From assembly GCA_024234935.1 (NCBI GenBank), contig JACKNI010000007.1:11454-75453 (forward strand): DNA of 64,000 nt, written 5' to 3'. A program made the position numbers and the translations under genes. How positions within the stretch are numbered: the stretch's first letter is position 1; every line of letters begins with the position of its first letter. The notes under the pieces are model-generated. The model saw only the letters and a program-made list of their open reading frames with translations, was not told the DNA's origin and searched no databases. Of this stretch, positions 21,863 through 55,700 are shown in pieces. The DNA is from Chromatiales bacterium. Lineage in GTDB: Bacteria; Pseudomonadota; Gammaproteobacteria; Steroidobacterales; GCA-2729495.

Positions 21863-21893
21863 ATACGATTTGTTACGCAGGGGACTGTTAAAG

Positions 21894-41739: not shown

Positions 41740-42410
41740 GAATCTGTCGCCCTTTGTTGTCGTCTGAGGCGGTCGCGGATGCCGCTGGACTTCAGCCAGG
41801 CCAGCGTGGCACAGGCAATGCGCTGTTCCAGCAGCCAGTGAACATCATCCGGCGTGTCGATGTCACGTGCAAATCCGGCCAGTTCAGTATGCCGTGCCGG
41901 TATCCCCCTGGCGCGGGCGGCTTCCAGATGCCGCTTTGCGCTATCGGGTCCATACAGAAAGGGAATGGCCGTTGGCGGACTGAGCAACAGCGCATTGGTG
42001 CCGCCGTCCCGGGCGGCGGGGCACAGGCTGATGCCTTCCGTGTGACTTTCCAGCAGCCGGGTGACATCAGCGGCAGAGAGCGTGGGCAGGTCGGCGGGCA
42101 GCACCAGCAGATGACGCACGCCCTTTGCGGCCAGTCCGGCAGCAGCATCGCCGAGTGCCTTCCGGTAGTCATCGCCGGGCGGTTCGGGCAGCAGCTGTGC
42201 GCCACTGCCCGCGCTGAGCGCAGCGAGCTGCGGCTCGTTGCCGAGCAGGCTGATGCCGCTGATCAGGGGTGTGGCACCGAGGGCGCGCAGCACATCGAGC
42301 AGCATCTGCGCGGCAAGCTTTGCGCATTCCTCGCGGGTGAGCAAGCCATCAAGCCGCGTCTTGGCACGGGCGAAAGGCTTGACCGGTACCAGTGCCCAGG
42401 CGCCCGTCAT
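41736..42410 (-). CDS. cofC: 2-phospho-L-lactate / PEP guanylyltransferase (CofC/FbiD)
   Basis: 224 aa: WALVPVKPFARAKTRL...LLVLPADLPTLSAADV...DGGTNALLL (MobA-like nucleotidyltransferase fold). Confidence 0.8.
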   Translation of the reverse strand: MTGAWALVPVKPFARAKTRLDGLLTREECAKLAAQMLLDVLRALGATPLISGISLLGNEPQLAALSAGSGAQLLPEPPGDDYRKALGDAAAGLAAKGVRHLLVLPADLPTLSAADVTRLLESHTEGISLCPAARDGGTNALLLSPPTAIPFLYGPDSAKRHLEAARARGIPARHTELAGFARDIDTPDDVHWLLEQRIACATLAWLKSSGIRDRLRRQQRATDS

Positions 42411-42413
42411 GAT

Positions 42414-43376
42414 TCAGAGTGTGGCCGCAAAGCCGAGCGCGAAGCTGGCAAGTTTCAGCCGGTCGTCCAGCGTGTGCATGACGGTCTGTGTCGCGGCCAC
42501 CGCGATGCCGGCATCGATGATCGCTGCTGCTTCGCCGGCGTCGGTCTGGTCGAGGATGAAGCCGCCGAGCAGGTCGCGATAGTGATGCGCCACCGCCTGC
42601 GCCGAGGGCCGGAGGCCGAGTTCCGTCATGATCTTCGCGGTCGGCCCCTTCAGTGCCTGGCCACCGACGATCGGTGACACGGCGACGACCGGCGCGTGTG
42701 CCGAGCGTACCGCGGCGCGGATTGACGGAATGGCGAGTATCGGGTCGATGCTGAGCCAGGGGTTTGAGGGGGCGATGAAGATCGCTGCAAGATCGGGATC
42801 TGTCAGCGTTGCGGCGAGCGCGGCAGCGGGCGGGGCCGCGCTGGCACCCTGATAATGAATCGCTTTCACGCGTGGTTCGGCACGCTGGCGCACGAAGTAG
42901 TCCTGGAAGCCAAGGGTGGCGGGGCCGGCGTTGGTTTCGCAGTCGAGCACGGTGCGCACCGGCAGGTCGGACATCGGCAGGATCCGGGTTCTGACGCCGA
43001 GCTGCGCACACAGGTGTTGTGTGACATCGCTCAGGCTCCGGCCGGCAGCCAGCAGCCGCGTGCGTTCCAGGTGCGTGGCGAGGTCGCGGTCGCCGAGCCG
43101 GAACCAGGTCTCCGCGCCGAGCGCCTCGAGTCCTTCCATGCACGACCAGCTTTCATCGCGGAGGCCCCAGCCGGTGGTCTCGTTGACGACACCGGCTAGC
43201 GTGTACATCAGCGTGTCCAGATCCGGCGAAATCGCGAGACCGAGATGGCTGAAGTCGTCGCCGGTGTTGGCGATGATGGTCAGCTGATCCGCATCGAGCG
43301 TGCGCACCAGTCCAAGTGCCAGCTTGGCACCGCCGACGCCGCCGGCAAGCAGTACATAACGGGACTTTGCGCTCAC
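42414..43376 (-). CDS. cofD: 2-phospho-L-lactate transferase (CofD/FbiA)
   Basis: 320 aa: YVLLAGGVGGAKLALGL...IIANTGDDFSHLGLAISPDLDTLMYTLAG...IAPSNPWLSIDPIL. Confidence 0.9.
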   Translation of the reverse strand: MSAKSRYVLLAGGVGGAKLALGLVRTLDADQLTIIANTGDDFSHLGLAISPDLDTLMYTLAGVVNETTGWGLRDESWSCMEGLEALGAETWFRLGDRDLATHLERTRLLAAGRSLSDVTQHLCAQLGVRTRILPMSDLPVRTVLDCETNAGPATLGFQDYFVRQRAEPRVKAIHYQGASAAPPAAALAATLTDPDLAAIFIAPSNPWLSIDPILAIPSIRAAVRSAHAPVVAVSPIVGGQALKGPTAKIMTELGLRPSAQAVAHHYRDLLGGFILDQTDAGEAAAIIDAGIAVAATQTVMHTLDDRLKLASFALGFAATL

Positions 43377-44134
43377 CGGAACAGGTCTTCGTCGGCAGGC
43401 CGCAGTGCGTCGCGCGCGGTTTGTCCCGATTCGGTACAGGCTCCCGCGCCGCGGACCAGAACCAGCGGTGTGCCTTCGGCCGCTTCGCCCATCACCAGCA
43501 CGGCCGTCGCCGCGATGCTGTCGGCCACTGCCACTTCGCTCACCTGCAGCGTTCTGCCGAACATGTCGGGCTGGCCGCGCAGATCGTTGAGCGCCTTGAT
43601 GCCGGCGCAGCCGATCGCGATACCCACGGTGCCGAGCCGCCAGGCGCGGCCGATGCTGTCGGTGATGATCAGTCCGAGCGCGACGCCGAATTCCTTCTGC
43701 AGTGCTGCGCGCAGACCTGCCGCCGAAGCGTCGGGATCTTCGGGCAGCAACAGCGCGGTCTCGTCGCTGTCTTCGAGGTTGGACCGGTCGATGCCGGCGT
43801 TGGCCAGCACGACGCCGGTGCGGTGTTCGACGATGATCACCCCGGGCGAGACGCGGATCACCGAGCGCGATTCGCGCAGGATCAGCTCGACGACGCGCGG
43901 ATCCTTGTTGGCGCGTGAGGCGATGTCCTCCGCTTCGGCCGAAGGCCTTACCGTATCGAGCCGCACGCTGCGGCCCTCGGCCTTGGACACGATCTTCTGT
44001 GCGACGGCGATGAGGTCGCCGGCCAGCGGCTTTACGCCGCCTGCGCGCAGTGCGGCACTGATCAGCGCGGCCAGATCGTCACCGGGCTGTACCAGCGGTA
44101 CGCCCGGAATGCGCATGAAGCTGAGCCCGTTCAC
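43373..44134 (-). CDS. cofE: coenzyme F420-0:L-glutamate ligase (CofE, single-domain form)
   Basis: 253 aa: GDLIAVAQKIVSKAEGR...LANAGIDRSN...IITDSIGRAWRLGTVGIAIG. No C-terminal nitroreductase-like extension. 4-nt overlap with cofD. Confidence 0.85.
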   Translation of the reverse strand: MNGLSFMRIPGVPLVQPGDDLAALISAALRAGGVKPLAGDLIAVAQKIVSKAEGRSVRLDTVRPSAEAEDIASRANKDPRVVELILRESRSVIRVSPGVIIVEHRTGVVLANAGIDRSNLEDSDETALLLPEDPDASAAGLRAALQKEFGVALGLIITDSIGRAWRLGTVGIAIGCAGIKALNDLRGQPDMFGRTLQVSEVAVADSIAATAVLVMGEAAEGTPLVLVRGAGACTESGQTARDALRPADEDLFR

Positions 44135-44140
44135 GGACGC

Positions 44141-44821
44141 TCAGCTGGCGTCGTCAGCGATGCCGGTAATGCGTATGCCCGTATGCAGTCCGCCATAGCG
44201 CTTGTTCATGAAGATCAGCACCGACGTGAGCGCTTCGGCCGCCGCCGCATTCTCCAGTGAACCCGCATGCCAGGCGCGCAGCCCGGCAGCCCTGGCGAGG
44301 CCCACCACGACTTCGCGGGCCTCCGCCTTGTTGCCGGTGACCAGCACGTCGCAATCAAGAGCGTCATCGCTCTGCATCGAGTCAGCCGAGACATTATGAA
44401 AGGCTGCGACGACAGTCGTTTGTTCGCCGACCAGTTGCTGGGCGATGAGCGCGGCGCAGCCTTCAGGCGGCAGCTGCACGCGGGCGACCCGGGGTGGAAC
44501 CAGCGGTACCGTGGTATCGACGAGTATCTTGCCCGGCAGCGCAGCGCGGATTTCTCCCAGCGTCGGTCGCTGGTGGCTGAAAGGTACGGTGAGGACAACC
44601 ACGTTGCCCTCGCGGGCAGCTTCGAGATTGGACAGGCCGCGGACATTGGCACCGGGAAAGGCCTTGCGCAGCTCGCCAGCCGCCGCTTCGGCCTTGACCG
44701 CATCCCGCGAACCGATGATCACCGGAATGCCGGCCTGGGCCCAGCGACGGGCCAGCCCGCCGCCCAGCGCGCCGGTGCCGCCCACGATGGTGATTACGCC
44801 GAAGCGGCTGTCATTGACCAT
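44141..44821 (-). CDS. fno: NADPH-dependent F420 reductase (Fno/NpdG)
   Basis: ORF 44141-44899; ATG at 44821 gives [40 protein letters not shown] (Rossmann GxGxxG) ...[14 protein letters not shown]... Confidence 0.78.
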
Positions 44822-45023
44822 TGACTTGAACTCGTTGCTGCAACCCGGGGGCAGGCATGGTACCGAGCCGCTGCAGAGGGCACAAATGGCGGCTGGCATG
44901 GTCGCGGCTGGCAGGGCAAAATGGCGCCCTCAGGCTGCCCGGCCACCGGTCCCAGGCTCGCTGCGTATAACTGAAACCGAACATCCGCGGGCAAACCGGC
45001 CGCGACTACAAATAAAGAGAGCT

Positions 45024-45398
45024 ATGGAGATCTTCAAGGAGTTTATCTTCGAGGCGGCGCACCGCCTGCCCAACGTGCCTGCCGGCCACAAGTGCAGCCG
45101 GCTGCACGGCCATTCGTGGCGCGGGGCGATCTATGTCGAGGGGCCGGTCGATCCGCATGCCGGCTGGGTGATGGACTTCGGTGAAATCAAGCAGAAGTTT
45201 TCGCCCGTCTACGACATCCTCGACCATCATTATCTGAACGATGTGCCGGGTCTTGAGAATCCGACCAGCGAGGTGGTCGCACGCTGGATCTGGCAGCAAC
45301 TGAAACCGGTACTGCCCCTGTTGTCGAAGGTCATCGTGCATGAGACCTGTACGAGCGGTGCGATCTATCGGGGTGAGGACTGCGAGGCCGGTGGCTGA
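45024..45398 (+). CDS. queD: 6-carboxy-5,6,7,8-tetrahydropterin synthase QueD
   Basis: The last 124 aa of ORF 44445-45398 ([32 protein letters not shown]...[18 protein letters not shown]...[13 protein letters not shown]) are very close to E. coli QueD, including the CxxxHGH and zinc-binding His residues. Confidence 0.9.
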
Positions 45399-45837
45399 CG
45401 AGACGCTGATGCGCGCGGCGCTCGCGCTGGCGCGTCGCGGGCTGCTTGCCGGTGAAGCGCCGGTCGGTGCCTGCATCGCGCAGGACGGGCGGGTGATTGC
45501 CAGCGCGCACAGCGCCGTGGCCGGTGGTCCCGACGCAAGCGCGCATGCCGAGATTCTCGCCATCCGTGCCGCGTGCCGCAGTCTGCGCAGCGCGGCGCTT
45601 GCCGGCTGCGAGTTGTATGTCAGCGTTGAACCCTGTGCCATGTGTCTTGCCGCCTGTCACTACGCCGGGATTGACCAGGTGTTTTTTGCTGCCAGTTTGC
45701 AGGACATGCAGGCGGTCACCGGCCACGAACTGGGTGCGCCGGTACCTCTGTCGATCCGGTTGCACGGCGGTGTGCTCGGTGATGAAGCGCGCGCCATGCT
45801 GGCCGAGTGGGCAGCACAGCGGCAGGTGCGGGTGTAG
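45391..45837 (+). CDS. CMP/dCMP-type zinc deaminase (TadA / guanine deaminase-like)
   Basis: ORF 45340-45837. The likely start is GTG 45391 (overlaps the queD stop) or ATG 45409. HAE...PCAMC zinc signature ([10 protein letters not shown]...[13 protein letters not shown]). Confidence 0.72.
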
Positions 45838-46607
45838 CTGTGGCCGCTGTCTACGACGCCTTCGCCCGCGACTATCAGCGCAGCAAGGCCTCACCGCTGC
45901 GCGCGGCCATCGAAAGCTGGACCATCGATCGCCTGCTCGGTGATATCCGGGGATCCGCGATCTTCGATGCAGGCTGCGGCGACGGCTTTCATGCCCGGCG
46001 ACTGATGGCAAGGGGCGCAGGCCGCATAGCCGGCGTGGACGTTTCGGCGGCGATGATCCGGCTCGCACGCGAGGAGGAGAGCCGGGAGCCGCTGGGCATC
46101 CTGTACCAGTGCTGTGCGGTCGAGGACTTGCCGGAGCTGCCCTGTGCCGGTTACGGAGCAAGCGGTTTCGACATCGTGCTGGCTGCCTATCTGCTGCACT
46201 ACGCGCCATCGGTCGAGGTGCTCGCCCGCATGTGCCAGCGGCTTGCGAACGTACTGAAGCCCGGCGGTCGTCTCGTCGCCCTCGTCGAGAATCCGGACCA
46301 GACGGTGGCCGACTACGCCGGCTATGCGCCCTACGGCTTTGACAAGGTCGCGGCGGAGCCGCGTGCCGAAGCCAGCCGGATCCGCTACTCGCTGGTAGCC
46401 GGGCGGCAGATGATCCGCTTTGATACCTGGTACTACTCGCGCGACAGCTACGAGCGTGTGCTGCGCGACGCCGGCTTCAGCGCGATCGCATGGCACCCGC
46501 TGGAACTCGACCCTGATGCCGGGTCTGCCGGCTACTACGCTGACTATCTGCGTAACCCGCCGGTACTGGGCCTGACAGCCGATTTCCCCGGGATGCGGCG
46601 ATCATGA
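45807..46607 (+). CDS. class I SAM-dependent methyltransferase
   Basis: 266 aa (start uncertain: ATG 45807 or GTG 45843). Motif I IFDAGCGDGFHARRL; post-I RIAGVDVS; LKPGGRLVAL. Its stop overlaps the NRPS start (ATGA at 46604-46607). Confidence 0.75.
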   Translation: MGSTAAGAGVAVAAVYDAFARDYQRSKASPLRAAIESWTIDRLLGDIRGSAIFDAGCGDGFHARRLMARGAGRIAGVDVSAAMIRLAREEESREPLGILYQCCAVEDLPELPCAGYGASGFDIVLAAYLLHYAPSVEVLARMCQRLANVLKPGGRLVALVENPDQTVADYAGYAPYGFDKVAAEPRAEASRIRYSLVAGRQMIRFDTWYYSRDSYERVLRDAGFSAIAWHPLELDPDAGSAGYYADYLRNPPVLGLTADFPGMRRS

Positions 46608-49585
46608 GTACGCTGTTGCGCACACCGCTGCCGCAGTCCGATGCGCCGGATGCATGCCTGTCGCTCAGCCTGCTGGAACGCCTCGCCGCCCACGTGCAGC
46701 TGCGGCCCGACGCGCCGGCAATCGTCTGTGGCGAACAACAGCTGGCTTATGCAGCGCTTGATGCTGCGGCCAACCGGCTTGCGCATCGCCTGCAGGATCT
46801 CGGCGTTGCCCGCGATGTGCCAGTCGGCATCTGTCTCGAGCCCGGAACCGAGCTGCTGGTTGCGATGCTCGCCGTGCTGAAGGCCGGTGGCGCTTACTTG
46901 CCGCTGGATCCGGCCTGGCCTCGCGAACGCCTGCAGCAGATGCTGGGTGTCGTGAATCCGGCGGTGCTGATCAGCTGTGCCCGCCTGCGCGAGCGTTGCC
47001 CGGCCGGCATGCATGAGCTGCTTGATCTCGATCAGGAGCACGCGCGGATTGCGGCATGCAGTGCTGCGGATCCGGCAGTGGAGATCGTTCCGGAGCAGCT
47101 CTGCTACCTGATGTTCACTTCCGGTTCCGGCGGCGCGCCCAAGTGCGTGATGGTCACGCATGGCAATCTCGCCGGGCTGTTTCCGCCGCTCTGCGCGGCG
47201 CTCGAGTTCGGTTCCGATGATGTCTGGAGCTGGTTTCATTCCGCTTCCTTCGGCTTCTCGGTCTGGGAGATCCACGGTGCGCTGCTGCACGGTGGCTGCC
47301 TGCAGGTGGTGCCCGAAGTGGTCCGCAATGCACCCGCTGCACTCGGTGCCTGGATTGCCGAGCGGGGTGTGACGGTCTTCAGCCAGACGCCGTCAGCCCT
47401 GCGCCGGCTGCTCGGCGTGGCACCTTTTCATCAGGCGATCGCCGGCAGCCGGTTGCGTTATCTCGCGCTCAGTGGCGAGGCGCTGCGGCCGGAAGACATC
47501 GCCACCTGGCATCACTACCAGGATGCAGAACGACAACCCTCTGCGCCACGACTGCTCAGCACCTACGCGCTGACCGAGACCGCTGGCCAGGTAACCTTGC
47601 GCATTTACGGCGCAGCTGATTCCGGCAGCGAAGCAGTGCGCAATATCGGCCAGCCCCTCGGCGGTCGTCACGTGCTGGTACTGGATGCTGCCGGCCGGCC
47701 CGTCGCTCCGGGCGAAGCGGGCGAACTGTGGGTGGCCGGTACCTGTGTCGCGGCGGGCTATTTCGGCGACGCATCGCTCACCGCACAGCGCTTCACCACG
47801 CATGTCGTGGCCGGGCAGGGATTGCTGCGCGGTTACCGGACCGGTGACCAGGTGCGGCTGCGCGCTGATGGCGCACTCGAGTATCTGGGCCGTGCCGATA
47901 TGCAGCTCAAGTATCGGGGCTACCGTATCGAGCCTGCGGAAATCGAAGCCGCATTGCGTGGCCACCCGGGCGTACGCGATGCAGCCGTGGCACTGCAGAG
48001 CGATGTGGCCGGCAATCCGCGCCTCACGGCGCACATCGTCAGCGCGGAAACAAAGGCGGATGCAACCGGACTGGAGTTCTGGCCTTCGCTGGGCGCGTAT
48101 GAGGTATACGACGAGTTCCTGTACGGACTGATGAACGCCGAACCGGTGCGGCTGAACGCTTATCGCGCGGCTTTCGCCGGCAGCGTGCCTGGCAAGGCTG
48201 TACTCGATATAGGTACCGGCAGCGATGCTGTGCTGGCGCGCCTGTGTATCGAAGCCGGTGCCCGTCACGTGTATGCGGTTGAAATACTCGAGGCGGCAGC
48301 ACGGCAGGCAGCTGAACTGGTGCGCACGCTGGGGCTCGAAGATCGCATCACCGTTTTGCACGGTGATATTGCAGCCATGGTGCTGCCGGAGCCGGTCGAA
48401 GTGTGTACCCAGGGCATCATCGGCAATATCGGCAGTGCCGATGGCATCGTGGCGGTCTGGAATGCCGCACGCCGCAATTTTGCTGCGGGCTGCGTGCCGG
48501 TCCCGTCCCGTTGCGTCACCCGGCTTGCGCTGATGGAGTTGCCTGCCGCAGCGCGCGAGCGGCCACGTTTTTCGCCGCTTGCCGCCGACTACGTGCGGCG
48601 CATGTTCATGCTGACCGGAAAACCCTTCGATGTGCGTCTCTGCGTGCGCAACGTCAAAGCTGCGGACCTGCTGACCGCAGGTACCGATTTCGAAGTGCTG
48701 GAGTTCCACGGGCCGTTGCCGCCCGGCCACATCGGCAGTGCCGAACTCGAAGTGCGACGTGACGGATACCTGGATGGCTGCCTGCTGTGGACCGTGGTGT
48801 CTGCCGATGCCGTACACACGGTGGACTATCTGCAGGAGCAGCGTGCCTGGCTGCCGGTGTTCGTGCCGATGGCAGAAACCGGCATCACCGTGCATCGTGG
48901 CGATGTCGTGCGCATCAGCTGGCGGGCTTTCAACGAGTCAGATCCGCGCCATCCGGATTACGAGTTGTGCGTGTCCCTGGGCGCGGAGGGCGACAGGCCG
49001 GCGCGCGAGTTCAGGCAGGTGACGCGCCATTCAGGCACCGAGGCGGGTGCGATGCGACTGCATCGCGAACTGCTGGCGGATGTCGGTAGCGAGGATCAGG
49101 TGGTGTCGGTCGACGCCCTGCGAGCCTGGCTCGGCGATCGCGTACCCGAATACATGGTGCCGCAGAGCTGGCTGTTCCTGCCGGAGCTGCCGCTGACGCC
49201 GGGCGGAAAACTCGACCGCGAGGCGCTGCCCGCACCGGGCCGATATCGGCCGCGGCTTGCTGCTGCAGCCATCGCCCCGCGCAATGCCGTGGAGAATGCT
49301 GTTGCCGGACTCTGGGCGCGGGCGCTGGGCCTGGAAGCGATTGGCGTCGAGGACAACTTTTTTGATCTGGGTGGTGACTCGATCACCGCGGTGCAACTCA
49401 CCACGACGACCCAGCGCTGGCTGGATGCGCCGGTACCGCTCGCAGCCCTGTTCGATGCGCCTACGGTGGCCGCGATGTGCCGCCATCTCGAAGCGGCATA
49501 TGCAGCACCGCTTGCGGCCGCACTCGGGCGCGGTGGGGCTCATATGCAGCAAGGCTCGATGGATCGCGAGCACGGCGAGCTATGA
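46604..49585 (+). CDS. NRPS loading protein: interrupted adenylation domain A(MT) + carrier domain
   Basis: 993 aa. A3 FTSGSGGAPK; A4 SFGFSVWE (47249-47269); A7 YRTGD; A8 GRADMQLKYRGYRIEPAEIE. An insert of about 340 aa follows, then A9/A10 VPEYMVP...PLTPGGKLDRE. T domain FFDLGGDSITAVQL (Ser codon 49379-49381). Confidence 0.9.
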   Translation: MSTLLRTPLPQSDAPDACLSLSLLERLAAHVQLRPDAPAIVCGEQQLAYAALDAAANRLAHRLQDLGVARDVPVGICLEPGTELLVAMLAVLKAGGAYLPLDPAWPRERLQQMLGVVNPAVLISCARLRERCPAGMHELLDLDQEHARIAACSAADPAVEIVPEQLCYLMFTSGSGGAPKCVMVTHGNLAGLFPPLCAALEFGSDDVWSWFHSASFGFSVWEIHGALLHGGCLQVVPEVVRNAPAALGAWIAERGVTVFSQTPSALRRLLGVAPFHQAIAGSRLRYLALSGEALRPEDIATWHHYQDAERQPSAPRLLSTYALTETAGQVTLRIYGAADSGSEAVRNIGQPLGGRHVLVLDAAGRPVAPGEAGELWVAGTCVAAGYFGDASLTAQRFTTHVVAGQGLLRGYRTGDQVRLRADGALEYLGRADMQLKYRGYRIEPAEIEAALRGHPGVRDAAVALQSDVAGNPRLTAHIVSAETKADATGLEFWPSLGAYEVYDEFLYGLMNAEPVRLNAYRAAFAGSVPGKAVLDIGTGSDAVLARLCIEAGARHVYAVEILEAAARQAAELVRTLGLEDRITVLHGDIAAMVLPEPVEVCTQGIIGNIGSADGIVAVWNAARRNFAAGCVPVPSRCVTRLALMELPAAARERPRFSPLAADYVRRMFMLTGKPFDVRLCVRNVKAADLLTAGTDFEVLEFHGPLPPGHIGSAELEVRRDGYLDGCLLWTVVSADAVHTVDYLQEQRAWLPVFVPMAETGITVHRGDVVRISWRAFNESDPRHPDYELCVSLGAEGDRPAREFRQVTRHSGTEAGAMRLHRELLADVGSEDQVVSVDALRAWLGDRVPEYMVPQSWLFLPELPLTPGGKLDREALPAPGRYRPRLAAAAIAPRNAVENAVAGLWARALGLEAIGVEDNFFDLGGDSITAVQLTTTTQRWLDAPVPLAALFDAPTVAAMCRHLEAAYAAPLAAALGRGGAHMQQGSMDREHGEL
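48065..49093 (+). other. PRMT-fold SAM methyltransferase domain inserted between A8 and A9 of the loading A domain
   Basis: aa ~488-830: YDEFLYGLMNAEPVRLNAYRAAFAGSVPGKAVLDIGTGSDAVLARLCIEAGARHVYAVEILEAAARQAAELVRTLGLEDRITVLHGDIAAMVLPEPVEV. This parallels the type I PRMT N-terminal helix, motif I and post-I. It is followed by a C-terminal portion of beta-barrel length. Confidence 0.6.
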
Positions 49586-49746
49586 CCATCGCGGAGCTGC
49601 TCGCGGCAACGCGCGCGGCGGGAATCACGCTGCGGGTCGAGCGCGGGCGTCTGCTCTTTGACGCGCCGGCTGGCGCGCTGACCCCGGAACTGCGTCAGGC
49701 CCTCAGCGAACGCAAGCCGGAGCTGCTGGACTATTTCCACAACGGG
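49582..49746 (+). other. TubC-N-like N-terminal docking domain
   Basis: MTIAELLAATRAAGITLRVERGRLLFDAPAGALTPELRQALSERKPELLDYF fits the pattern of TubC-type docking domains (LLxxLxxxGVxLxxxGxxLxxxAPxGxLTxELxxxLxxxKxELL). Confidence 0.6.
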
Positions 49747-52700
49747 AACCCGGCGCCACTCGGCTTTGCACAGCAGAGCCTCTGGTTCCTGCATGAACTC
49801 TATCCGCAGGACACCGGCGCCAGCGAGCAGTTTGCGATCCGTATCGATGGTCCGCTCGATCCGACGCTGCTCGCGCGGGCCTGGCATGCCCTGCTTGCGC
49901 GTCATTCGATACTGCGTACGACTTTCAGTGAAAAGGACGGCCAGGTCTGGCAGGTACCGGCAGCACCGCAGCTGAATGGTCCGCCGCTGTTGCAGGTCAA
50001 TGTCGGTACGGTGCAGTCCGGTCTGCTGGAAATCGCTGCCACAGCGTTGCGTGAGCCCTTCGACCTGCGGCGTGGTCCGCTGCTGAAGCCGCAACTCTGC
50101 CGTATGGCCGACGAGCAGCACGTACTGCTGGTCACGGCACATCACATCATCGCTGACGGGCTGTCGGTTCCGGTCATTCGCGCGGAGCTGGTTGCGCTCT
50201 ATCAGGCACTGCTCGCGGGGAAGCCATCACCGCTGCCACCGCTGCAGCTCGAGTATGCGGACGTGGCGCGTGCGCAGCTGCAGACCGATGCGCAGCATGA
50301 AACCGGCGTGCTGCAGCGCTGGCAGGAGATACTCGCATCGCCGCCGCCTGCGGCCCTGCATGCGCTGGTGCGTCCGCGGCGGGGCACCAAAATCTCCCGG
50401 CGCTCTGCCTTTAGCCTGGAGGCGTCGCTGGCCGACAGGCTGCGTCGACTCGCACGTGACAGCGGCACCACTCCGTATGTCGTGCTGCTGGCCGCGTTTC
50501 GTGTACTGCTGGTCCGTCTGACCGGGCAGCACGATCTGGTGATCGGTACGCCGATGACCCTGCGGGATACGCCCGAGCAGCGCGAGATGATCGGCTGCCT
50601 GGTGAACCCGGTTGCCTTGCGGACGCCGGTCGAACTGCAGGATTCATTTCGCAGTCACCTGTTGCGTGAGCGGGCAATGGTGCTCGAGGCCATGCAGTAC
50701 CGGAATGTGCCTTTTTCGCGGGTAGTGGCTGCCGTCAGCCCGGAGCGAAAACTGGATGAGCATCCGCTGTTCCAGATCCTGTTTTCATGGGAGACCGGTA
50801 TACAGCCGGAACCGGTGGTCATCGCCCCGGCTGATGCTGCGCCTGAGGTGCGCTTTTGCCTCCTGTCCCTGCCGGCCGAACGCGCTTCGTACTTTGACCT
50901 CGAGTGTCTGCTGCGCGATGCGGGTGAAGGGCAGCCGATGGACGGCTATTTCGCCTGGTCGACGGCTGTGCTTGAGGACCTGGTCGGCGCACAACTGGCG
51001 CAGATATACGCAGTGCTGCTTGCTGCAATCATCGACCGTCCGGATGCGCCGATGGCCGGGCTCAGCCTGCTGTCCGAAGTCGCACGCCGGAAGATCCTTC
51101 ATGACTGGAACGATACGGCTGCGCCGTACCCGGAGCGGACATCGTTGCATGACGCCTTTCTTGAGCAGGCCCGTCGCGTGCCGGAGGCGCCGGCGCTGCA
51201 CACCACCACAGGGCTCTGGAGCTACGCCCGGCTTGAGGAGCGCAGCGCAGAGCTGGCGGCCGACCTGACCGCCTGTGGTCTGCAGCCCGGCATGCCGGTG
51301 GGCCTGTGCATGCCGCGCTCGGCCGAAGCTGTCGTTGCGCTGCTCGGTATCCTGCGTGCGGGCGGCGTGATCGTCCCGCTGGATCCGGCCTGGCCGCTGG
51401 CACGTCTGCAGTTTGTCGCCGCCGATGCGGGCGTGCAGATCGTGCTTCGCGACCTGCATCCCTTCCGGCCGGATGCGCCGCTGAAGCCGGCCGTACCGGC
51501 GCCAGCCGACGCTGCAGTGATCCTCTATACCTCGGGCTCCACGGGCATGCCGAAAGGCGCGTTGACCACGCATGCTTCGGCGGTCAATCGTTGCCACTGG
51601 ATGTGGCAGGGCTACGGCTTCGGTGCGGAGGACGTGTTTGCGCTGCGCACCAGTTTCGGGTTTATCGATTCGCTGTGGGAGATCTTCGGCGCGCTCGGTC
51701 ACGGTATCCCGCTGGTGATCGTGCCGGACGATATTGCCGGCGATGCGCTGCGCCTGCCGGACTTCCTGCGCGCTCATGCGGTCACGCACCTGGTGCTCGT
51801 GCCCTCGCTGCTGCGCGCACTGCTCGATGCAATGCCGGCGGGAGGGCTGCCCGCGCTCAGCAGTTGCATCAGCAGCGGCGAGCCGCTGGATCCGGCGCTC
51901 GCGCGGCGTTTCCGCTCGGCTTTTCCCGGCGCGCGGCTGCTGAACACCTATGGCACCTCGGAGATCTGGGATGCCACCTGTCATGAAGTGACCGGGTTGT
52001 CCGCGGCGACGGAGCGTGTGCCGATCGGCCGGCCGGTTGCCAATGCGAGCGTCCATGTACTCGATGCCAACGCCGAGCTGCTGCCGCCGGGCATTCCCGG
52101 CGAGCTGTACGTTGGCGGCATCGGGGTCGGACCCGGCTACTGGCAGCGGCCGGAACTGACAGCGGAGAAGTTCATCACGCTCCGTCTCGCCACGGATGGC
52201 GAGCCGCTACGTCTGTATCGCAGTGGCGATCGCGCGCGCTGGCTTGCTGACGGCCAGATTGAGTGTCTGGGCCGGCTCGATGCCCAGTTCAAGCTGCGCG
52301 GGCTGCGCATCGAGCCGGGCGAGATCGAGAGTGCGCTCACTGCCCATCCGGCCGTCGCCGGCGCCATCGTCACAATCTGCGGAGAGGGCGAGGCCGCGCG
52401 CCTCGTCGCCGGCGTGGTGCGCGCTGCACAGGCGGATACCGGGTCCGATGCAGAACTGTGGTCAGGATTGCGCACACATCTGCGCCGCTTGTTGCCGGCG
52501 CACATGCTGCCGGCCGGCTGGCAATGCCTCGATCAGTTGCCGCTGACGCCGAGCGGAAAGCTGGACCGGCGTGCGTTTGCGGCGCTGTACGGCAACGGGA
52601 GCCGTGTCGAAGTACCGGCCGCCGGTGCAGGGCCGCGTACCGACACCGAGCGCGAGCTTGCAGCGATGTGGTCGGAGGTGTTCGGTGGCAGACACATCGG

Positions 52701-55700
52701 CGTCGATGAGAACTTCTTCGATGCAGGTGGCCACTCGTTGCTCGCCACGCGCATCGTCAGCCGGATCCGCACCCGCCATGCGCAAGACTTCACGCTGCGC
52801 GAGATGTTTGCGGCACCGACGATCGCAGCGCTGGCGGCGGCGCTCGACAGCCGGCGGCAGTCGCAAGCCGCCGCGGGCCTGGTCGCGGCAGCACATGACG
52901 ATGTCGTGCCGCTGTCCTTTGCCCAGGAGCGGCTCTGGTTCCTGGACCAGCTTGATCCCGGCAGTCCGGCTTACAACATCGCCTGGACGGTGTGTCTGTC
53001 CGGAGCGCTGGACCGCGGTGCGCTACGCGCCGCACTCGACTTTCTCATCGCGCGCCACGAAGCCTTGCGCAGCCGCTTTCCGGCTGTGGCTGGCCGACCG
53101 CAGCTGTGCATCGATGAGCCCGGGTCGCTCGGCCTGGTCGAGCTCGATATCGCCGGGGAAACGGAATTGCAGGCAGCGCTATTGCGCCATGCGCGGGCGC
53201 CTTTCGTGCTGGCTACCGGCCCGCTGCTGCGCGCGGTACTCGTGCATCGCTCGGCGGATGAACACCTGCTGATGCTCGCCATGCAGCACATCATCACGGA
53301 TGCCACCTCCAACCATGTGCTTTTTGAAGAGCTGGTGACGAGCTATGCGGCATTCGCCGCTGGCAGGGAGCCGGCACTGCCGCCGCCGGCGATCAGGTAT
53401 GCGGACTATGCGCTCTGGCAGCGGCGGCGACCGCCTGATGCGGGGCTGGCCGCGGACCTCGCCTGGTGGCGCGCACAACTGGCGGGCATGCCGGCGGCAC
53501 TCGAGTTGCCGACTGATTATCCGCGGCCCGCCGAGCAGCAGTTCCGCGGTGCCTGGGTACGCCGCACCTTGCCGTCCGGACTGGTGCGGGCGTTGCGGGC
53601 ACTGGCCCGCGAGCAGCAGGGCACCTTATATATGGTGTTGCTTGCTGCCTTCGACGTGCTGCTGTCCCGCTACAGCGGCAGCGAGGACATTGTCGTCGGT
53701 ACGCCGGTAGAGGGGCGGACCGAGCGTTCCCTGGAGCAGCTGGTCGGACTTTTCATCAACACGCTGGTGATGCGCACGGATCTCAGTGGTGACCCAACCT
53801 TTACGGAGTTGCTGCAGCGTGTGCGCACGGTGACGCTCGAGGCCCAGGCGCACCAGGATCTGCCCTTCGAGAAACTCGTCGAAGCGCTGCGTCCCGCGCG
53901 CAGTCTGAGCCGTGCGCCGCTGTTCCAGGTCATGTTCAACCTGATCCGTATGCCGGAAGAGCAACAACAGGTGGCGGGGCTGACGTTCCGTCTCGACCGG
54001 CTGGTAGACCAGGGCGTGTCGAGTTTCGATCTCACGCTGACGGCGAGTGAGCAGGGCGAGCAGGTCGGGCTGATCTTCGAATACGCGACCGATCTGTTCG
54101 CAGTCCGGACCGTCGAGCAGCTTGCCGATTCCTGTCTGTGTCTGCTCCAGGGGATCGTCGAGTGCCCGGCACAGGCCATATCGCGATTGCCGTTGCTCGA
54201 TGAAGCCGGCCGGCAGCACCTGCTCGACGACTTCAATCCGCCGGTCCTTGCGGCGGGCTTTGTGCCGGTGCATCAGACCGTGGCCGGCAATGCGCTGCGC
54301 TGGCCGGATGCGCCGGCGGTTTCGCTGGGTGGAATATCCCTGCGCTATGGCGAACTCGAAGCGCGTGCCAACCGGCTTGCACACTTCCTGCTCGCGCGGG
54401 GTTTGCCAGCCGGCGCGCGGATTGGCATCTGCCTGTCGCGCGAGCCGTCCTTGCTGGTCGCGGTGCTGGCGGTGCTGAAAGCCGGTGCAGCCTATGTGCC
54501 GCTGGATCCCGCTTACCCGCCCGCACGACTGGCGGCGATGGCAGACGACGCCGATCTCGCTCTGCTGCTCGTCGATATGAAAACCCGTGCCTGCTTTGCG
54601 GTCGACGATGCGCGCCTGCTGCAGCCTGATGCGTTGCAGGCAGAAACAGACCGCTGTGCCGCGAGTCCACCGGTGCTCCGCGTGAGTGCCGATGACCTGG
54701 CCTACCTGCTCTACACCTCCGGCTCTACCGGCCGGCCGAAGGCCGTGATGGTCACGCATGGCAATCTTGCCAGCGCACTGTCGGCATGGCTTGAGCTCTA
54801 TACCCTGCAGCCGGGCGAATCCCATCTGCAAATGGCGAGCGTGGCATTCGATGTCTTCAGCGGCGACTGGGTCCGTGCGCTGGGTTCGGGTGGCCGCCTG
54901 GTGCTGTGTCCGCGCGAGACGCTGCTCGAGCCGTCGGCGCTGCTGGCCGTGCTGACCCACGAGAAAATTGCAGTTGCCGAGTTCGTGCCGGCGGTGATCC
55001 GGCTGCTGCTTGCGCATGCAGACGCACAGGACCTGCAGTTGCCGCCGCTGCGTCTGCTGATCGTCGGTTCTGACCTGTGGTTTGCTGCCGAGGCCGCTGC
55101 GCTGCGCGCCCGCTGCACGTCTGGCACCCGCGTGTTCAATTCCTACGGCGTCGCCGAGGCAACGATCGACAGCGCCTGCCTGGAAGTCGGTGAGGATATG
55201 CCTGCCGCCGGCGCAGTGCCGGTTGGCAGGCCGCTAGCGAATGCGCGGCTCTACGTGGTCGACGCGCGCGGCGATATTGTCCCGGCCGGCGTGCCCGGTG
55301 AGCTGTGCATCGGTGGTGCCGGTGTGGCGCAAGGGTACTTCGGTCAGCCGGAACTCAGCGCGGAGAAATTCATTGCCGATCCTTTTGCCGGTGTGCCGGG
55401 TGCGCGTCTGTACCGTAGCGGCGACCGCGCACGCTGGCGCCACGATGGCAATCTGGAGTTGCTTGGCCGCGCCGACTTCCAGTTCAAGCTGCGCGGCTTT
55501 CGCATCGAACCGGCTGAAGTCGAGGCACGCCTGACAGAACATCCGGCCATCCGCCACGCTGTCGTCGGCCGACGCGAAACAGCGGCTGGCGATGCATGCC
55601 TGGTGGCCTGGATCGTGCCCGGCGATGCGGCTGTGCCGGTGCCAGACCTGCGGCTGGCCTTGCAGTCCAGTTTGCCTGAGCATCTCATACCCAACATTTT

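What the first reader, a model, noticed from the sequence alone, without database searches (positions are those of the whole stretch)
48065..49093. Adenylation domain interrupted by a PRMT-fold methyltransferase
The loading NRPS (46604-49585) reads A1-A8, then an insert of about 340 aa, then A9-A10, then T. The insert sits at the a8/a9 site where known interrupted A domains carry class I N-, O- or S-methyltransferases.

Its sequence instead resembles type I protein arginine methyltransferases. It has an N-terminal helix (YDEFLYGLMNAEPVRLNAYRAA, cf. HEEMLKDxVRTxxYRxA) and motif I/post-I (VLDIGTGSDAVLARLCIEAGARHVYAVE, cf. VLDVGxGTGILSxFAAxAGAxxVYAxE). It also has a spacer to ITVLHGD..LPEPVEV and a long C-terminal portion of about the length of the PRMT beta-barrel.

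The PRMT double-E loop looks replaced (TQGIIGNIGSADG instead of SExMGxxLxxE), so the methyl acceptor may not be a guanidino group. I do not recall a PRMT-type insertion in an NRPS A domain being described.
Basis: partly seen in the sequence, partly recalled or inferred. Interest (0 to 1): 0.75.

Follow-up and report, generated by a model that had tools for sequence, protein, structure and literature searches.

The report
PRMT-fold methyltransferase inside NRPS loader
The inserted domain does have the protein-arginine-methyltransferase fold, but it belongs to an already catalogued class of NRPS-embedded methyltransferases; what looks new is that this copy sits in a starter module that probably loads and methylates a pterin-type acid rather than tyrosine.

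Summary
ORF 46604-49585 is A(core)-insert-A(sub)-T, with a 343-aa insert between motifs a8 and a9. The PRMT reading also holds: the best PDB sequence hits are PRMTs, and a confident AlphaFold model (pLDDT 90) matches PRMT6/CARM1/Hmt1 over its full length, beta-barrel included. Both Glu of the double-E loop are replaced.

The novelty claim fails. The insert is 42% identical to the first M domain of didemnin DidJ and 35% to the M domain of the cryptophycin-locus NRPS. It carries the GxGxxA motif of the published "type III M domain" (family 2b interrupted A domains, linked to Tyr O-methylation). Resemblance of such a domain to arginine methyltransferases was noted in 2023 for LynB3.

What does appear undescribed is the subclade. 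About 50 loaders, all from metagenomes, have Gly in place of Asp235 (pocket GFWSASTGQK). Their catalytic loop is re-specified (QG...N...D). Most sit beside a QueD/PTPS, deaminase and methyltransferase cassette, and in one relative the deaminase and methyltransferase are fused into the loading module. My best inference is a carrier-bound 6-carboxypterin/lumazine starter that is methylated on the assembly line. No biochemistry supports this yet.

The parts
45024..45398 (+). QueD (6-carboxy-5,6,7,8-tetrahydropterin synthase), first gene of the cassette
   Evidence: Pfam PTPS 2.8e-37. NCBIfam QueD equivalog TIGR03367 scores 104.3 bits against a cutoff of 89.25. Translation verified.
45340..45837 (+). 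CDA-fold zinc deaminase of the TadA/guanine-deaminase group; overlaps the QueD 3' end
   Evidence: Pfam dCMP_cyt_deam_1 2.2e-22. Nearest PDB sequences are TadA (7.5e-24) and B. subtilis guanine deaminase (4.7e-20). A homologous domain is fused into the loading module of P0041.
45807..46607 (+). Free-standing class I SAM methyltransferase (second methyltransferase of the cassette); its stop overlaps the loader start
   Evidence: Pfam Methyltransf_25/11/12/23. Syntenic in L004, L005, L011, L014, L016, L019 and L020.
46604..49585 (+). Loading NRPS, A(core)-M-A(sub)-T, 993 aa, with no C domain
46604..48064 (+). Adenylation core plus the first part of A-sub (a1-a8); specificity pocket GFWSASTGQ(K) with Gly at position 235
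   Evidence: Code read from a MAFFT alignment to GrsA-PheA. a4 FGFSVWE begins at nt 47249 and a8 at nt 47888.
48065..49093 (+). PRMT-fold SAM methyltransferase insert (type III M domain, Gly235-loader subclade)
48200..48229 (+). SAM motif I, VLDIGTGSDA (GxGxxA form)
   Evidence: Asp48, Gly50 and Gly52 are 100% conserved in the clade. This matches the type III description.
48401..48448 (+). Double-E-loop equivalent, VCTQGIIGNIGSADGI. The first Glu is replaced by Gly (preceded by Gln) and the second by Asp.
   Evidence: Alignments to PRMT6. Clade conservation: Q116 70%, G117 73%, N121 100%, D126 100%. Asp235 hosts instead show S116 94%, E117 85%, E126 94%.
48836..48862 (+). THW-loop equivalent, EQRAWLPVF. 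The Trp is retained; the Thr and His are not.
   Evidence: The profile alignment places ...saWlpv... on PRMT6 ...THWKQ.... W262 is 96% and Q259 96% conserved in the clade.
49094..49243 (+). Remainder of A-sub, with a9 (VPEYMVP) and a10 (PGGKLDR)
   Evidence: AMP-binding_C aa 835-869; motif positions.
49298..49489 (+). Thiolation (carrier) domain with the GGDS phosphopantetheine site
   Evidence: PP-binding aa 899-962, 4.8e-16; FFDLGGDS at aa 919.
49582..57768 (+). Second NRPS (TubC-type docking domain, C-A-T-C-A-T-C-T). Its likely ATG at 49582 overlaps the loader's TGA as ATGA.
   Evidence: Pfam; junction sequence.
57765..64000 (+). Third NRPS (C-A-T-C-A-T...), which runs off the window
39349..44899 (-). 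Divergent F420 set: FbiC (39349-41739), CofC (41739-42413), CofD (42414-43376), CofE (43373-44134), NADPH-dependent F420 reductase NpdG (44141-44899). It is a conserved neighbour of this cassette in relatives; its role is unknown.
   Evidence: The same arrangement occurs in L014, L019 and L020.

Best explanation
Shown by computation: the insert is a SAM-binding methyltransferase with the PRMT fold, and it belongs to the known 'type III' class of M domains inserted between a8 and a9 of NRPS adenylation domains. Its characterised relatives sit in Tyr-activating modules of pathways that produce O-methyl-tyrosine (DidJ; the cryptophycin-locus NRPS). Those relatives still carry the PRMT double-E loop. 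The window's copy belongs to a distinct subclade of the family. That subclade occurs only in first (loading) modules. Its A domains have lost Asp235, the residue that anchors an alpha-amino group, and share a conserved pocket G[FY]WS[AV]STG[QR]. Its catalytic loop has been re-specified to (T)QG..GN..S(A/S)DG. Inferred: the loader activates a non-amino heteroaromatic carboxylic acid, most likely the 6-carboxy(tetrahydro)pterin made by the adjacent QueD, and loads it on its own carrier domain. While the acid is tethered, the embedded M domain methylates the distal pyrimidine end of the ring. The co-transcribed deaminase converts the 2-amino group to an oxo group (pterin to lumazine), and the second methyltransferase adds another methyl. 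The result would be a (di)methyl-lumazine/pterin-6-carbonyl cap, which the downstream NRPSs extend. My rough confidence by layer: PRMT fold and type III membership about 0.95; starter is not an alpha-amino acid and the M domain has a changed acceptor about 0.8; starter is pterin/lumazine-6-carboxylate about 0.55; ring N-methylation rather than O-methylation about 0.35.
For: Fold and family. PDB phmmer hits are almost all PRMTs. The AF2 model has pLDDT 90.4 and pTM 0.90. The Foldseek top 50 are all type I PRMTs, at E of 1e-24 to 1e-22, TM about 0.7, over 330-350 aligned columns. The insert is 42% identical to the first M domain of the Tistrella pTM3 C-A(M,M)-T-TE protein, which has the DidJ architecture, and 35% identical to the M domain of the Nostoc ATCC 53789 NRPS lying between a PKS and a KR-containing NRPS. 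It has the GxGxxA motif of type III M domains. The family is large: 521 cluster representatives at E<=1e-30.
Subclade. Among 127 host A domains, all with Gly235 have the M domain starting at aa 431-637, i.e. in the first module, and carry the QG/N/D loop. Asp235 hosts, including Tyr codes DASTxAAVC, keep S-E...E. SAM-contact positions remain 86-100% conserved, and the new loop residues N121 and D126 are 100% conserved, which argues for a working active site. The core of the clade separates on clustering.
Substrate. QueD passes its equivalog cutoff, and its product is a carboxylic acid. The genes from QueD through NRPS2 overlap at every junction. PTPS/QueD lies directly upstream of the loader in 6 of 8 independent Gly235-clade loci with upstream DNA: the window, L012 (which also has a FolE2-like GTP cyclohydrolase), L014, L016, L017 and L020. 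The M domains in these loci are down to about 40-47% identical to the window's. GTP cyclohydrolase I is present in L014 and L020. The deaminase is present in 7 of 10 loci, and in P0041 the deaminase and a methyltransferase are fused directly after the loader's T domain: A-M-T-deaminase-MT-C....
Precedent. The fungal penilumamide cluster has an A domain shown to activate pterin-6-carboxylate, together with a deaminase and two methyltransferases, and makes a 1,3-dimethyllumazine-6-carbonyl cap (PMC10549243).
Against: There is no biochemistry for any member of the subclade, and all named members come from MAGs. L018 (Planctomycetales) has no PTPS, deaminase or methyltransferase within 8 kb, and L019 lacks PTPS. 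QueD is also a housekeeping queuosine gene, so adjacency alone is weak evidence; the argument rests on recurrence and on the fusion. The pocket is unrelated to the one characterised pterin-activating A domain (DVMVLLMITK). The deaminase is no closer to guanine deaminases than to TadA. The family's only known chemistry is O-methylation inferred from product structures, so N- versus O-methylation and the site are guesses. The argument that the far end of a 6-carbonyl-pterin lies about as far from the thioester as the Tyr hydroxyl comes from my own estimate using standard bond lengths, not from a computation. The redox state of the pterin is unknown, as is the role of the conserved F420 genes.
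Confidence: 0.55

Rival explanations
1. This is an ordinary type III function on a phenolic starter. The loader activates a Tyr-like acid that lacks the amino group (for example 4-hydroxyphenylpyruvate, 4-hydroxyphenyllactate or 4-hydroxybenzoate), and the M domain O-methylates the phenol as in DidJ and the cryptophycin NRPS. The QueD, deaminase and methyltransferase genes would be unrelated neighbours.
For: The only chemistry linked to this M-domain family is Tyr O-methylation. Loss of Asp235 fits any non-amino acid. L018 has the loader without the cassette.
Against: The pocket GFWSASTGQ shares nothing with the Tyr codes DASTxAAVC found in the same family. Tyr-type members keep the double-E loop, while this clade replaces it with a different, fully conserved set of residues. 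The cassette recurs across relatives only 40-64% identical, and the deaminase plus methyltransferase are fused into the loading module in P0041. A deaminase has no role on a phenolic acid.
Confidence: 0.12
2. The starter is a different GTP-derived heterocyclic acid, chiefly 7-carboxy-7-deazaguanine (made from CPH4 by the housekeeping QueE). Like pterin, it has a carboxylate and a 2-amino-4-oxopyrimidine ring that can be deaminated and methylated.
For: QueD is the queuosine-pathway enzyme. The deaminase resembles guanine and guanosine deaminases. The logic of carboxylate plus deaminase plus two methyltransferases fits equally well.
Against: No QueE (radical SAM) or QueC gene appears in any of the sampled cassettes. 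The dedicated genes are only GTP cyclohydrolase and QueD/PTPS. To my knowledge, known deazapurine clusters carry their own QueE.
Confidence: 0.12
3. The inserted domain is catalytically silent in this clade, either as a structural or dimerisation module or as a SAM sensor. The free-standing methyltransferase does all the methylation.
For: Both catalytic Glu residues of the PRMT/type III loop are lost. Methyltransferase-like inserts with non-methyltransferase roles exist in NRPSs; the PchE epimerase insert is one example, according to the title and abstract of PMC8807600 listed.
Against: SAM-contact positions are 86-100% conserved (Arg29, Asp48, Gly50/52, Glu73, Asp101). The replaced loop has its own invariant residues (N121 and D126 at 100%, Q259 at 96%). 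That pattern points to selection on a pocket rather than decay. L017 keeps the M domain although it has no second methyltransferase.
Confidence: 0.08
4. This is true PRMT-like chemistry: the loader activates an open-chain guanidino acid (for example guanidinoacetate or 4-guanidinobutyrate), and the M domain N-methylates its guanidino group.
For: The fold and its closest solved relatives are arginine methyltransferases. A guanidino acid lacking an alpha-amine would also explain Gly235.
Against: The two Glu residues that grip the guanidinium in PRMTs are precisely the ones lost, whereas relatives in other hosts keep them. Neither QueD nor the deaminase has a role in such a pathway. The pocket is rich in aromatic and hydroxyl residues rather than acidic ones.
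Confidence: 0.04

Closest known systems
Type III M domains of family 2b/5b interrupted A domains (ThxA2 module 6, DidJ, VatN; also the cryptophycin-locus NRPS and LynB3/LynB5)
   Same: Same insertion site (a8-a9), same GxGxxA SAM motif and the same homologous ~340-aa domain: 42% identity to the DidJ-architecture protein and 35% to the Nostoc protein. The PRMT-like character is shared: the Nostoc copy passes Pfam's PRMT5 threshold, and the LynB3 resemblance is stated in PMC10127204.
   Different: Known members sit in elongation modules with Tyr pockets (DASTxAAVC) and keep the S-E...E loop. This one sits in a C-less loading module with a Gly235 pocket (GFWSASTGQK) and a QG...N...D loop, and it is linked to pterin-forming genes.
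Type I protein arginine methyltransferases (PRMT6, CARM1, PRMT1/Hmt1)
   Same: N-terminal helix with the conserved Arg, motif I, the post-I Glu, a beta-barrel with a helical insertion at the position of the dimerisation arm, and the Trp of the THW loop. Foldseek TM is about 0.7 over the full length.
   Different: Both Glu of the double-E loop and the Thr and His of the THW loop are replaced. The domain is embedded in an adenylation domain and presumably acts on a phosphopantetheine-tethered small molecule, not on protein arginine.
Penilumamide (plm) pathway of Aspergillus flavipes: the pterin-6-carboxylate-activating A domain PlmA, the deaminase PlmD, and the methyltransferases PlmH and PlmI
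   Same: Same gene logic: pterin-forming enzymes, a deaminase, two methyltransferases, and an NRPS starter A domain for a heteroaryl acid. The product there carries a 1,3-dimethyllumazine-6-carbonyl cap.
   Different: It is fungal. The PlmA pocket DVMVLLMITK is unrelated and keeps Asp. No methyltransferase is embedded in the A domain. The pterin acid is made by a folate-type route rather than by QueD.
Type I M domain of TioS(A4), the only interrupted A domain family that the 2020 catalogue says has a representative structure
   Same: It is also a class I methyltransferase inserted between a8 and a9, and it acts on the carrier-bound substrate.
   Different: It performs backbone N-methylation, is about 390 aa, and has different motifs. 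It does not appear among the 60 listed sequence matches of the insert against PDB, which are nearly all PRMTs.
Pepteridine NRPS-like/pteridine hybrid cluster of Photorhabdus (PMC5384830)
   Same: It is a bacterial cluster that joins pteridine biosynthesis genes with NRPS-type enzymes (listed; I read only the abstract).
   Different: From the abstract it is an NRPS-like enzyme, not a multimodular assembly line with an interrupted A-domain loader. I did not compare sequences.

Membership tests
Type III M domain / family 2b interrupted A domain (Lundy, Mori and Garneau-Tsodikova 2020) | M domain inserted between A-domain motifs a8 and a9 | tested here: met
   a8 is at aa 429, the insert spans about aa 488-830, and a9 is at aa 847.
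Type III M domain / family 2b interrupted A domain (Lundy, Mori and Garneau-Tsodikova 2020) | SAM motif with only GxG and a conserved Ala two residues later (GxGxxA) | tested here: met
   GTGSDA at insert residues 50-55; the Ala is 90% conserved in the clade.
Type III M domain / family 2b interrupted A domain (Lundy, Mori and Garneau-Tsodikova 2020) | Sequence homology to reference members (DidJ first M domain; ThxA2; VatN) | tested here: met
   tblastn against Tistrella pTM3 gives 42% identity over 95% of the query, E=7e-67. The hit lies in the first M domain of a C-A(M,M)-T-TE protein, and phmmer gives 2e-73.
Type III M domain / family 2b interrupted A domain (Lundy, Mori and Garneau-Tsodikova 2020) | A/M boundary motif L(V/A/I)(A/G)(Y/F)xxx | tested here: inconclusive
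   The boundary strand reads LTAHIVS. The Leu and Ala fit; Thr and His depart from the published consensus.
Type III M domain / family 2b interrupted A domain (Lundy, Mori and Garneau-Tsodikova 2020) | Host A domain selects L-Tyr or an analogue, and the domain O-methylates the phenol | tested here: not met
   The pocket is GFWSASTGQK, with Gly235 and no resemblance to DASTxAAVC. The chemistry itself cannot be tested here.
Type I PRMT | Rossmann SAM-binding half with motif I, a post-I acidic residue, and an N-terminal helix Arg | tested here: met
   VLDIGTG, VYAVE and VRLNAYR all align to PRMT6 and are 86-100% conserved.
Type I PRMT | C-terminal beta-barrel with an inserted helical arm | tested here: met
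   Tested on a predicted model only. pLDDT is 90.4. Strands run from residue 139 to 320, with helices at 161-184. Foldseek aligns 330-350 columns to PRMT6, CARM1 and Hmt1 with TM about 0.7.
Type I PRMT | Double-E loop (two Glu nine residues apart that bind the guanidinium) | tested here: not met
   SE is replaced by QG and the second Glu by Asp. The Asp235-host relatives and the free-standing homologues do keep both Glu.
Type I PRMT | THW loop | tested here: inconclusive
   Only the Trp is retained: RAWLPV against THWKQ.
Type I PRMT | Methylates arginine residues of proteins; functions as a head-to-tail dimer | not testable with these tools
   Needs enzymology and structural work.
Pterin-activating NRPS starter module (PlmA type) | The A domain adenylates pterin-6-carboxylic acid | not testable with these tools
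   Requires an in vitro adenylation or loading assay.
Pterin-activating NRPS starter module (PlmA type) | Specificity code resembling PlmA (DVMVLLMITK) | tested here: not met
   GFWSASTGQK. If the function is shared, it arose independently.
Pterin-activating NRPS starter module (PlmA type) | The cluster encodes pterin-forming enzymes, a deaminase and two methyltransferases | tested here: met
   QueD, a deaminase, a free-standing methyltransferase and the embedded M domain. GTP cyclohydrolase is present in relatives L012, L014 and L020.

The most novel reading that the evidence does not exclude
A widespread but wholly uncharacterised family of bacterial NRPS loading modules uses QueD-derived 6-carboxy(tetrahydro)pterin as a starter unit and tailors it while it is bound to the carrier. 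An A-domain-embedded PRMT-fold methyltransferase has had its guanidinium-binding double-E loop rebuilt to methylate the guanidine-like pyrimidine end of a pteridine. A deaminase and a second methyltransferase act alongside it, as separate proteins or fused into the module. If true, this would be the first bacterial pterin/lumazine-capped nonribosomal peptides, the first bacterial pterin-activating A domain, a secondary-metabolic use of the queuosine enzyme QueD, and a PRMT-fold enzyme acting on a heterocycle. F420 may be a dedicated cofactor of the pathway.
Probability: 0.4. Interest if true: 0.75.

Novelty: new variant of a known kind. Interest (0 to 1): 0.5.

Why it matters
As stated, the finding is not new. 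A PRMT-type methyltransferase inserted in an A domain is a catalogued domain type, present in the didemnin, cryptophycin, vatiamide, thaxteramide and lyngbyapeptin pathways. Three points still have value.

First, the full-length PRMT fold, and the retention of the double-E loop in the Tyr-type members, give a structural template for a domain class whose 2020 catalogue reported no structure and no matches to known O-methyltransferase motifs.

Second, this family is hosted by far more kinds of A domain than the literature's "Tyr O-MT" label implies.

Third, the window exemplifies a large, metagenome-only subclade of loading modules whose pocket, rebuilt catalytic loop and conserved or fused partner enzymes point to a pteridine starter unit. 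That gives natural-product chemists a concrete, testable prediction: fluorescent lumazine/pterin-capped peptides from Chromatiales-type gammaproteobacteria. It also gives enzymologists a natural example of how a PRMT active site is retargeted.

Tried and rejected
- Pfam and NCBIfam scans of the insert gave only sub-threshold generic methyltransferase hits on motif I (Methyltransf_25/18, PrmA, PrmC). They could not discriminate between families. The PDB sequence search and the fold comparison were what decided it.
- The first homologue search, which is limited by a word index, suggested the family was rare, with only 24 hits. The exhaustive search overturned that: 3992 hits, 521 of them at E<=1e-30.
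- I looked for the supplementary alignments of the 2020 catalogue so that I could compare motifs directly. None are held, and one term search was rejected on syntax. I substituted a tblastn against plasmids that reaches the didemnin megaplasmid.
- The genome-contig scan with the whole loader returned only two near-identical orthologues, plus loci (L006-L010) that share just the A domain and have no insert. They were not useful for context.
- A neighbour-joining tree script timed out. I replaced it with average-linkage clustering and between-class identities. That supports a core Gly235 clade, but it is not a proper phylogeny: six divergent Gly235 members clustered with the Asp235 hosts.
- A regex-based extraction of the downstream A-domain codes produced only two codes, both doubtful, so I make no prediction for the peptide.
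- I considered that the F420 genes might explain the starter unit, for example a deazaflavin acid. I found no support for this and left it as an unexplained conserved neighbour.
- I considered a 7-deazaguanine starter. I rate it lower because no QueE or QueC gene is in any cassette.
- The profile search with alignment A1 is inflated by genuinely PRMT-like free-standing sequences in the profile. I used it only to map loops, not as evidence of relationship.

Full report

Yes. ORF 46604..49585 (+) encodes 993 aa. Profile searches place an AMP-binding core at aa 29-387 and the full adenylation-domain model TIGR01733 at 49-462. The C-terminal piece of AMP-binding_C is at 835-869, and a carrier domain is at 899-962.

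Motif a8 (GRADMQLKYRGYRIE) is at aa 429 and the last A-sub strand (LTAHIVS) at 474. Motif a9 (VPEYMVP) is at 847, a10 (PGGKLDR) at 866 and the GGDS carrier site at 919.

**2. Is the insert PRMT-like?**

Curated profile libraries could not tell. Only sub-threshold generic methyltransferase hits cover motif I. A direct sequence search of the PDB was clearer. Nearly all of the best matches are protein arginine methyltransferases: PRMT6 at 6.5e-15, AtPRMT10 at 1e-10, then CARM1, PRMT7, PRMT1 and PRMT3. These alignments cover only the first 115-175 residues.

An AlphaFold2 model built on 22 homologues is confident (mean pLDDT 90.4, pTM 0.90). It shows a Rossmann half followed by a beta-rich half (strands from residue 139 to 320) with a helical insertion at 161-184.

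Foldseek against the PDB returns only type I PRMTs in the top 50 (PRMT6, CARM1, yeast Hmt1). E-values run from 1.5e-24 to about 5e-22, TM-scores are about 0.7 on both normalisations, and 330-350 columns are aligned, i.e. the whole protein including the beta-barrel. This rests on a predicted model, but a very confident one.

A profile alignment maps the loops, and I use it for that purpose only, because the profile contains PRMT-like sequences. PRMT6 IVSE aligns with CTQG, HES with ADG, and THWKQ with RAWLPV.

**3. Is it a new kind of insertion?**

No. An exhaustive HMMER search of 1.84 billion cluster representatives finds 3992 relatives, 521 of them at E<=1e-30. Nearly all lie inside NRPS-sized proteins, and many at internal module positions.

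A tblastn against plasmids hits the Tistrella mobilis pTM3 megaplasmid at 42% identity over 95% of the insert (E=7e-67). It also hits an NRPS on plasmid pNsp_c of Nostoc sp. ATCC 53789 at 35% identity (E=3e-59).

The Tistrella protein is C-A(M,M)-T-TE, and the hit is the first of the two inserted M domains. This is the published architecture of didemnin DidJ, which makes N,O-dimethyl-Tyr. The Nostoc protein lies between a type I PKS and a KR-containing NRPS. That is the position of the module that builds the O-methyl-chlorotyrosine unit of cryptophycin; this locus assignment is from my own knowledge of the pathway. Its M domain passes Pfam's PRMT5 cutoff, 32.9 bits against 22.9.

The 2020 catalogue of interrupted A domains (PMC8341866) defines "type III M domains" (families 2b and 5b; ThxA2, DidJ, VatN). 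They are a8-a9 inserts whose SAM motif lacks the third Gly and reads GxGxxA, and they are assigned to Tyr O-methylation from product structures. Our insert reads GTGSDA.

That paper never mentions PRMTs. [quoted passage not shown] So the architecture is annotated in characterised clusters, and the PRMT resemblance has been noted in print, if only in passing.

**4. What is particular about this copy?**

I extracted the Stachelhaus pockets of 127 A domains that host this M-domain type, using a MAFFT alignment to GrsA-PheA whose sequence I supplied from memory. The control code DAWTIAAIC was recovered correctly. Two groups emerge.

- **Asp235 hosts.** These include the Tyr codes DASTxAAVC of DidJ and the Nostoc protein, and many other codes. 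Their M domains read VCVSE-IVG-IGG-EGA, so the PRMT double-E is retained (S116 94%, E117 85%, E126 94%).
- **Gly235 hosts.** About 50 proteins have Gly at position 235 and a tightly conserved pocket G[FY]WS[AV]STG[QR]. The window's is GFWSASTGQ(K). In every one, the M domain starts at residue 431-637, i.e. in the first module. The loop reads (T)QG-I(I/V)GN-IGS(A/S)DG (Q116 70%, G117 73%, N121 100%, D126 100%), with Q259 (96%) next to the retained Trp.

SAM-contact positions (Arg29, Asp48, Gly50/52, Glu73, Asp101) are 86-100% conserved in both groups. The Gly235 clade therefore looks like a working methyltransferase with a rebuilt acceptor pocket, not a relic.

Clustering separates a core Gly235 clade from the rest. 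Mean identity is 39% to Tyr-type members against 45% within the clade, and the free-standing bacterial homologues lie outside all embedded forms.

Asp235 anchors the alpha-amino group of amino-acid substrates; this is established knowledge of A domains. Its loss in a C-less loader therefore points to a carboxylic acid starter that is not an alpha-amino acid.

**5. Which acid?**

The three genes immediately upstream overlap one another and the loader. QueD runs 45024-45398, the deaminase 45340-45837 and the methyltransferase 45807-46607, and the loader starts at 46604. The loader's TGA overlaps the next NRPS's ATG as ATGA at 49582-49585. This looks like a single translationally coupled operon.

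The first gene passes NCBIfam's QueD equivalog cutoff (104.3 bits against 89.25). QueD makes 6-carboxy-5,6,7,8-tetrahydropterin, which is a carboxylic acid. The second is a CDA-fold deaminase about as close to B. subtilis guanine deaminase (4.7e-20) as to TadA (7.5e-24). The third is a generic class I methyltransferase.

I then sampled Gly235-clade loci from metagenomes.

| Locus | Genes next to the loader |
|---|---|
| Window, L004, L005 (orthologues) | QueD, deaminase, MT; F420 genes divergent upstream |
| L014 | PTPS, deaminase, MT; GTP cyclohydrolase I downstream; F420 genes upstream |
| L016 | PTPS, deaminase, MT |
| L020 | PTPS, deaminase, MT; GTP cyclohydrolase I downstream; F420 genes upstream |
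| L012 | PTPS, a FolE2-like GTP cyclohydrolase (LCPCSKEISDYGAHNQRGH; recognised from memory), a different MT |
| L017 | PTPS only |
| L019 | deaminase, MT, no PTPS; F420 genes upstream |
| L011 | deaminase, MT; contig is cut upstream |
| L013 (P0041) | deaminase and MT fused into the loading module; contig is cut upstream |
| L018 (Planctomycetales) | none of the three within 8 kb |

PTPS/QueD is therefore adjacent in 6 of 8 independent loci with upstream DNA, and a deaminase is present in 7 of 10.

The strongest single item is P0041. Its loading module reads A, M (498-831), T (905-968), deaminase (994-1144), MT (1197-1356), then C and onward. This fusion shows that the deaminase and the second methyltransferase belong to the loading module, and presumably act on the tethered starter.

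No QueE or QueC gene appears in any cassette.

There is one precedent. The fungal penilumamide cluster has an A domain shown to activate pterin-6-carboxylate, together with a deaminase and two methyltransferases. It makes a 1,3-dimethyllumazine-6-carbonyl cap (PMC10549243). Its A-domain code is unrelated, so any shared function would be convergent.

I found no paper linking QueD or carboxypterin with NRPSs in bacteria. All named members of the clade come from MAGs: Chromatiaceae/Chromatiales, other Gammaproteobacteria and Planctomycetales.

**6. Proposed mechanism**

Shown by computation:
- the domain order of the loader;
- the PRMT fold of the insert;
- its family membership;
- the loss of Asp235 and of both loop Glu residues;
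- conservation of the SAM site;
- recurrence of the gene cassette, and its fusion in P0041.

Inferred:
- GTP cyclohydrolase and QueD supply 6-carboxytetrahydropterin, or an oxidised form of it.
- The Gly235 A domain adenylates its 6-carboxylate and loads it on the carrier.
- The embedded PRMT-fold domain then methylates the distal pyrimidine end of the ring. By my own estimate from standard bond lengths, N1, N2 and N3 of a 6-carbonyl-pteridine lie about as far from the thioester as the phenolic oxygen of tethered Tyr. That would explain why a Tyr-type M domain was recruited.
- The deaminase converts the 2-amino group to an oxo group, turning pterin into lumazine.
- The second methyltransferase adds a further methyl.
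- The TubC-docked NRPSs then extend the cap.

The order of these steps is unknown. So are the ring's redox state, whether methylation is on N or O, and the peptide sequence.

**7. Rivals**

| Rival | Main evidence against | My estimate |
|---|---|---|
| Phenolic starter O-methylated in the usual type III way | The different pocket, the rebuilt loop, and the fused deaminase | ~0.12 |
| 7-carboxy-7-deazaguanine starter | Fits the chemistry, but no dedicated QueE in any cassette | ~0.12 |
| Silent or structural domain | The conserved SAM site and the invariant new loop residues | ~0.08 |
| Open-chain guanidino acid with true PRMT chemistry | Loss of exactly the guanidinium-binding Glu residues | ~0.04 |

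**8. Verdict**

The PRMT-fold interpretation is confirmed on a predicted model. The claim that this is an undescribed type of insertion is refuted. What remains is a new variant of a known kind: a loader-specific subclade of type III M domains with a retargeted active site, very probably working on a QueD-derived pteridine starter.

My interest score is moderate (0.5). The headline claim is already known, but the subclade gives a specific and testable prediction of bacterial pteridine-capped nonribosomal peptides, and a natural case of PRMT active-site retargeting.

Noticed in passing
window 39349-44899 (- strand); also L014 5648-8068, L019 937-6414, L020 2188-6179: A complete F420 biosynthesis set (FbiC, CofC, CofD, CofE) plus the NADPH-dependent F420 reductase NpdG lies divergently next to the QueD cassette. 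The same juxtaposition recurs in relatives whose M domains are only 46-64% identical. F420 is therefore probably part of this cluster type, but I did not identify any F420-using tailoring enzyme.
   Followed up: partly
Proteins P0057, P0071, P0134 (pocket DAWQFGLID); P0080, P0092, P0121, P0127 (DVENxGAIT); P0083, P0088, P0105 (DVxDTGMIT); P0104, P0108, P0143 (DIFHFGLII): Type III (PRMT-fold) M domains are hosted by many A domains whose pockets are not Tyr-like. Some have a Gln-type code, where the first loop Glu becomes Asn (VSN...SEG); others have pockets rich in acidic residues. The literature treats this domain type as a Tyr O-methyltransferase only, so other side-chain methylations (amide or basic side chains?) may be hidden in the family.
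   Followed up: partly
DidJ-architecture protein L001 3106-9597; Nostoc NRPS L002 9073-14904; about 77 Asp235-host M domains: The Tyr-type embedded M domains keep the PRMT double-E loop with canonical spacing (VSE-x8-EG; E117 85%, E126 94%). This suggests the two Glu residues were re-used for phenol binding or deprotonation. I did not find this noted in the papers I read.
   Followed up: partly
L003 7914-9017 (Streptomyces sp. F2 plasmid pFRL4, WP_024126772.1) and hits H2, H4-H7, H9: Free-standing full-length homologues (~35% identity) occur on Streptomyces linear plasmids. The free-standing metagenomic homologues P0009, P0011, P0012 and P0015 have an intact double-E loop; I did not check the loop in the Streptomyces proteins. 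In L003 the gene lies close to an arginine-deiminase-family gene and next to a nitroreductase, which hints at a small-molecule guanidino substrate.
   Followed up: no
L017 9748-13821; L018 8001-15896; L013 344-8659: Some Gly235-type loaders carry extra domains: a sulfotransferase domain after the carrier (L017, L018) and a nitroreductase-type oxidase domain later in the same protein (L013/P0041, L018). L013's next NRPS gene contains a second type III M domain in an elongation module.
   Followed up: no
window 49582-57768: The second NRPS has three condensation, two adenylation and three carrier domains, so its last module appears to be C-T with no A domain. Its N-terminus has a TubC-type docking domain.
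   Followed up: no
window 21801-23843, 30688-32673, 25144-26193, 26249-27256: Two PQQ-dependent alcohol/glucose-type dehydrogenases and two luciferase-like monooxygenases lie 13-23 kb upstream of the F420 genes. To my knowledge the luciferase-like family includes many F420-dependent enzymes. They may be the ordinary users of F420 in this organism.
   Followed up: no
insert residues 161-184 (window ~48545-48616): The model has a helical insertion in the beta-rich half, at the position of the PRMT dimerisation arm. If it works as it does in PRMTs, interrupted A domains of this type might dimerise through their M domains.
   Followed up: no
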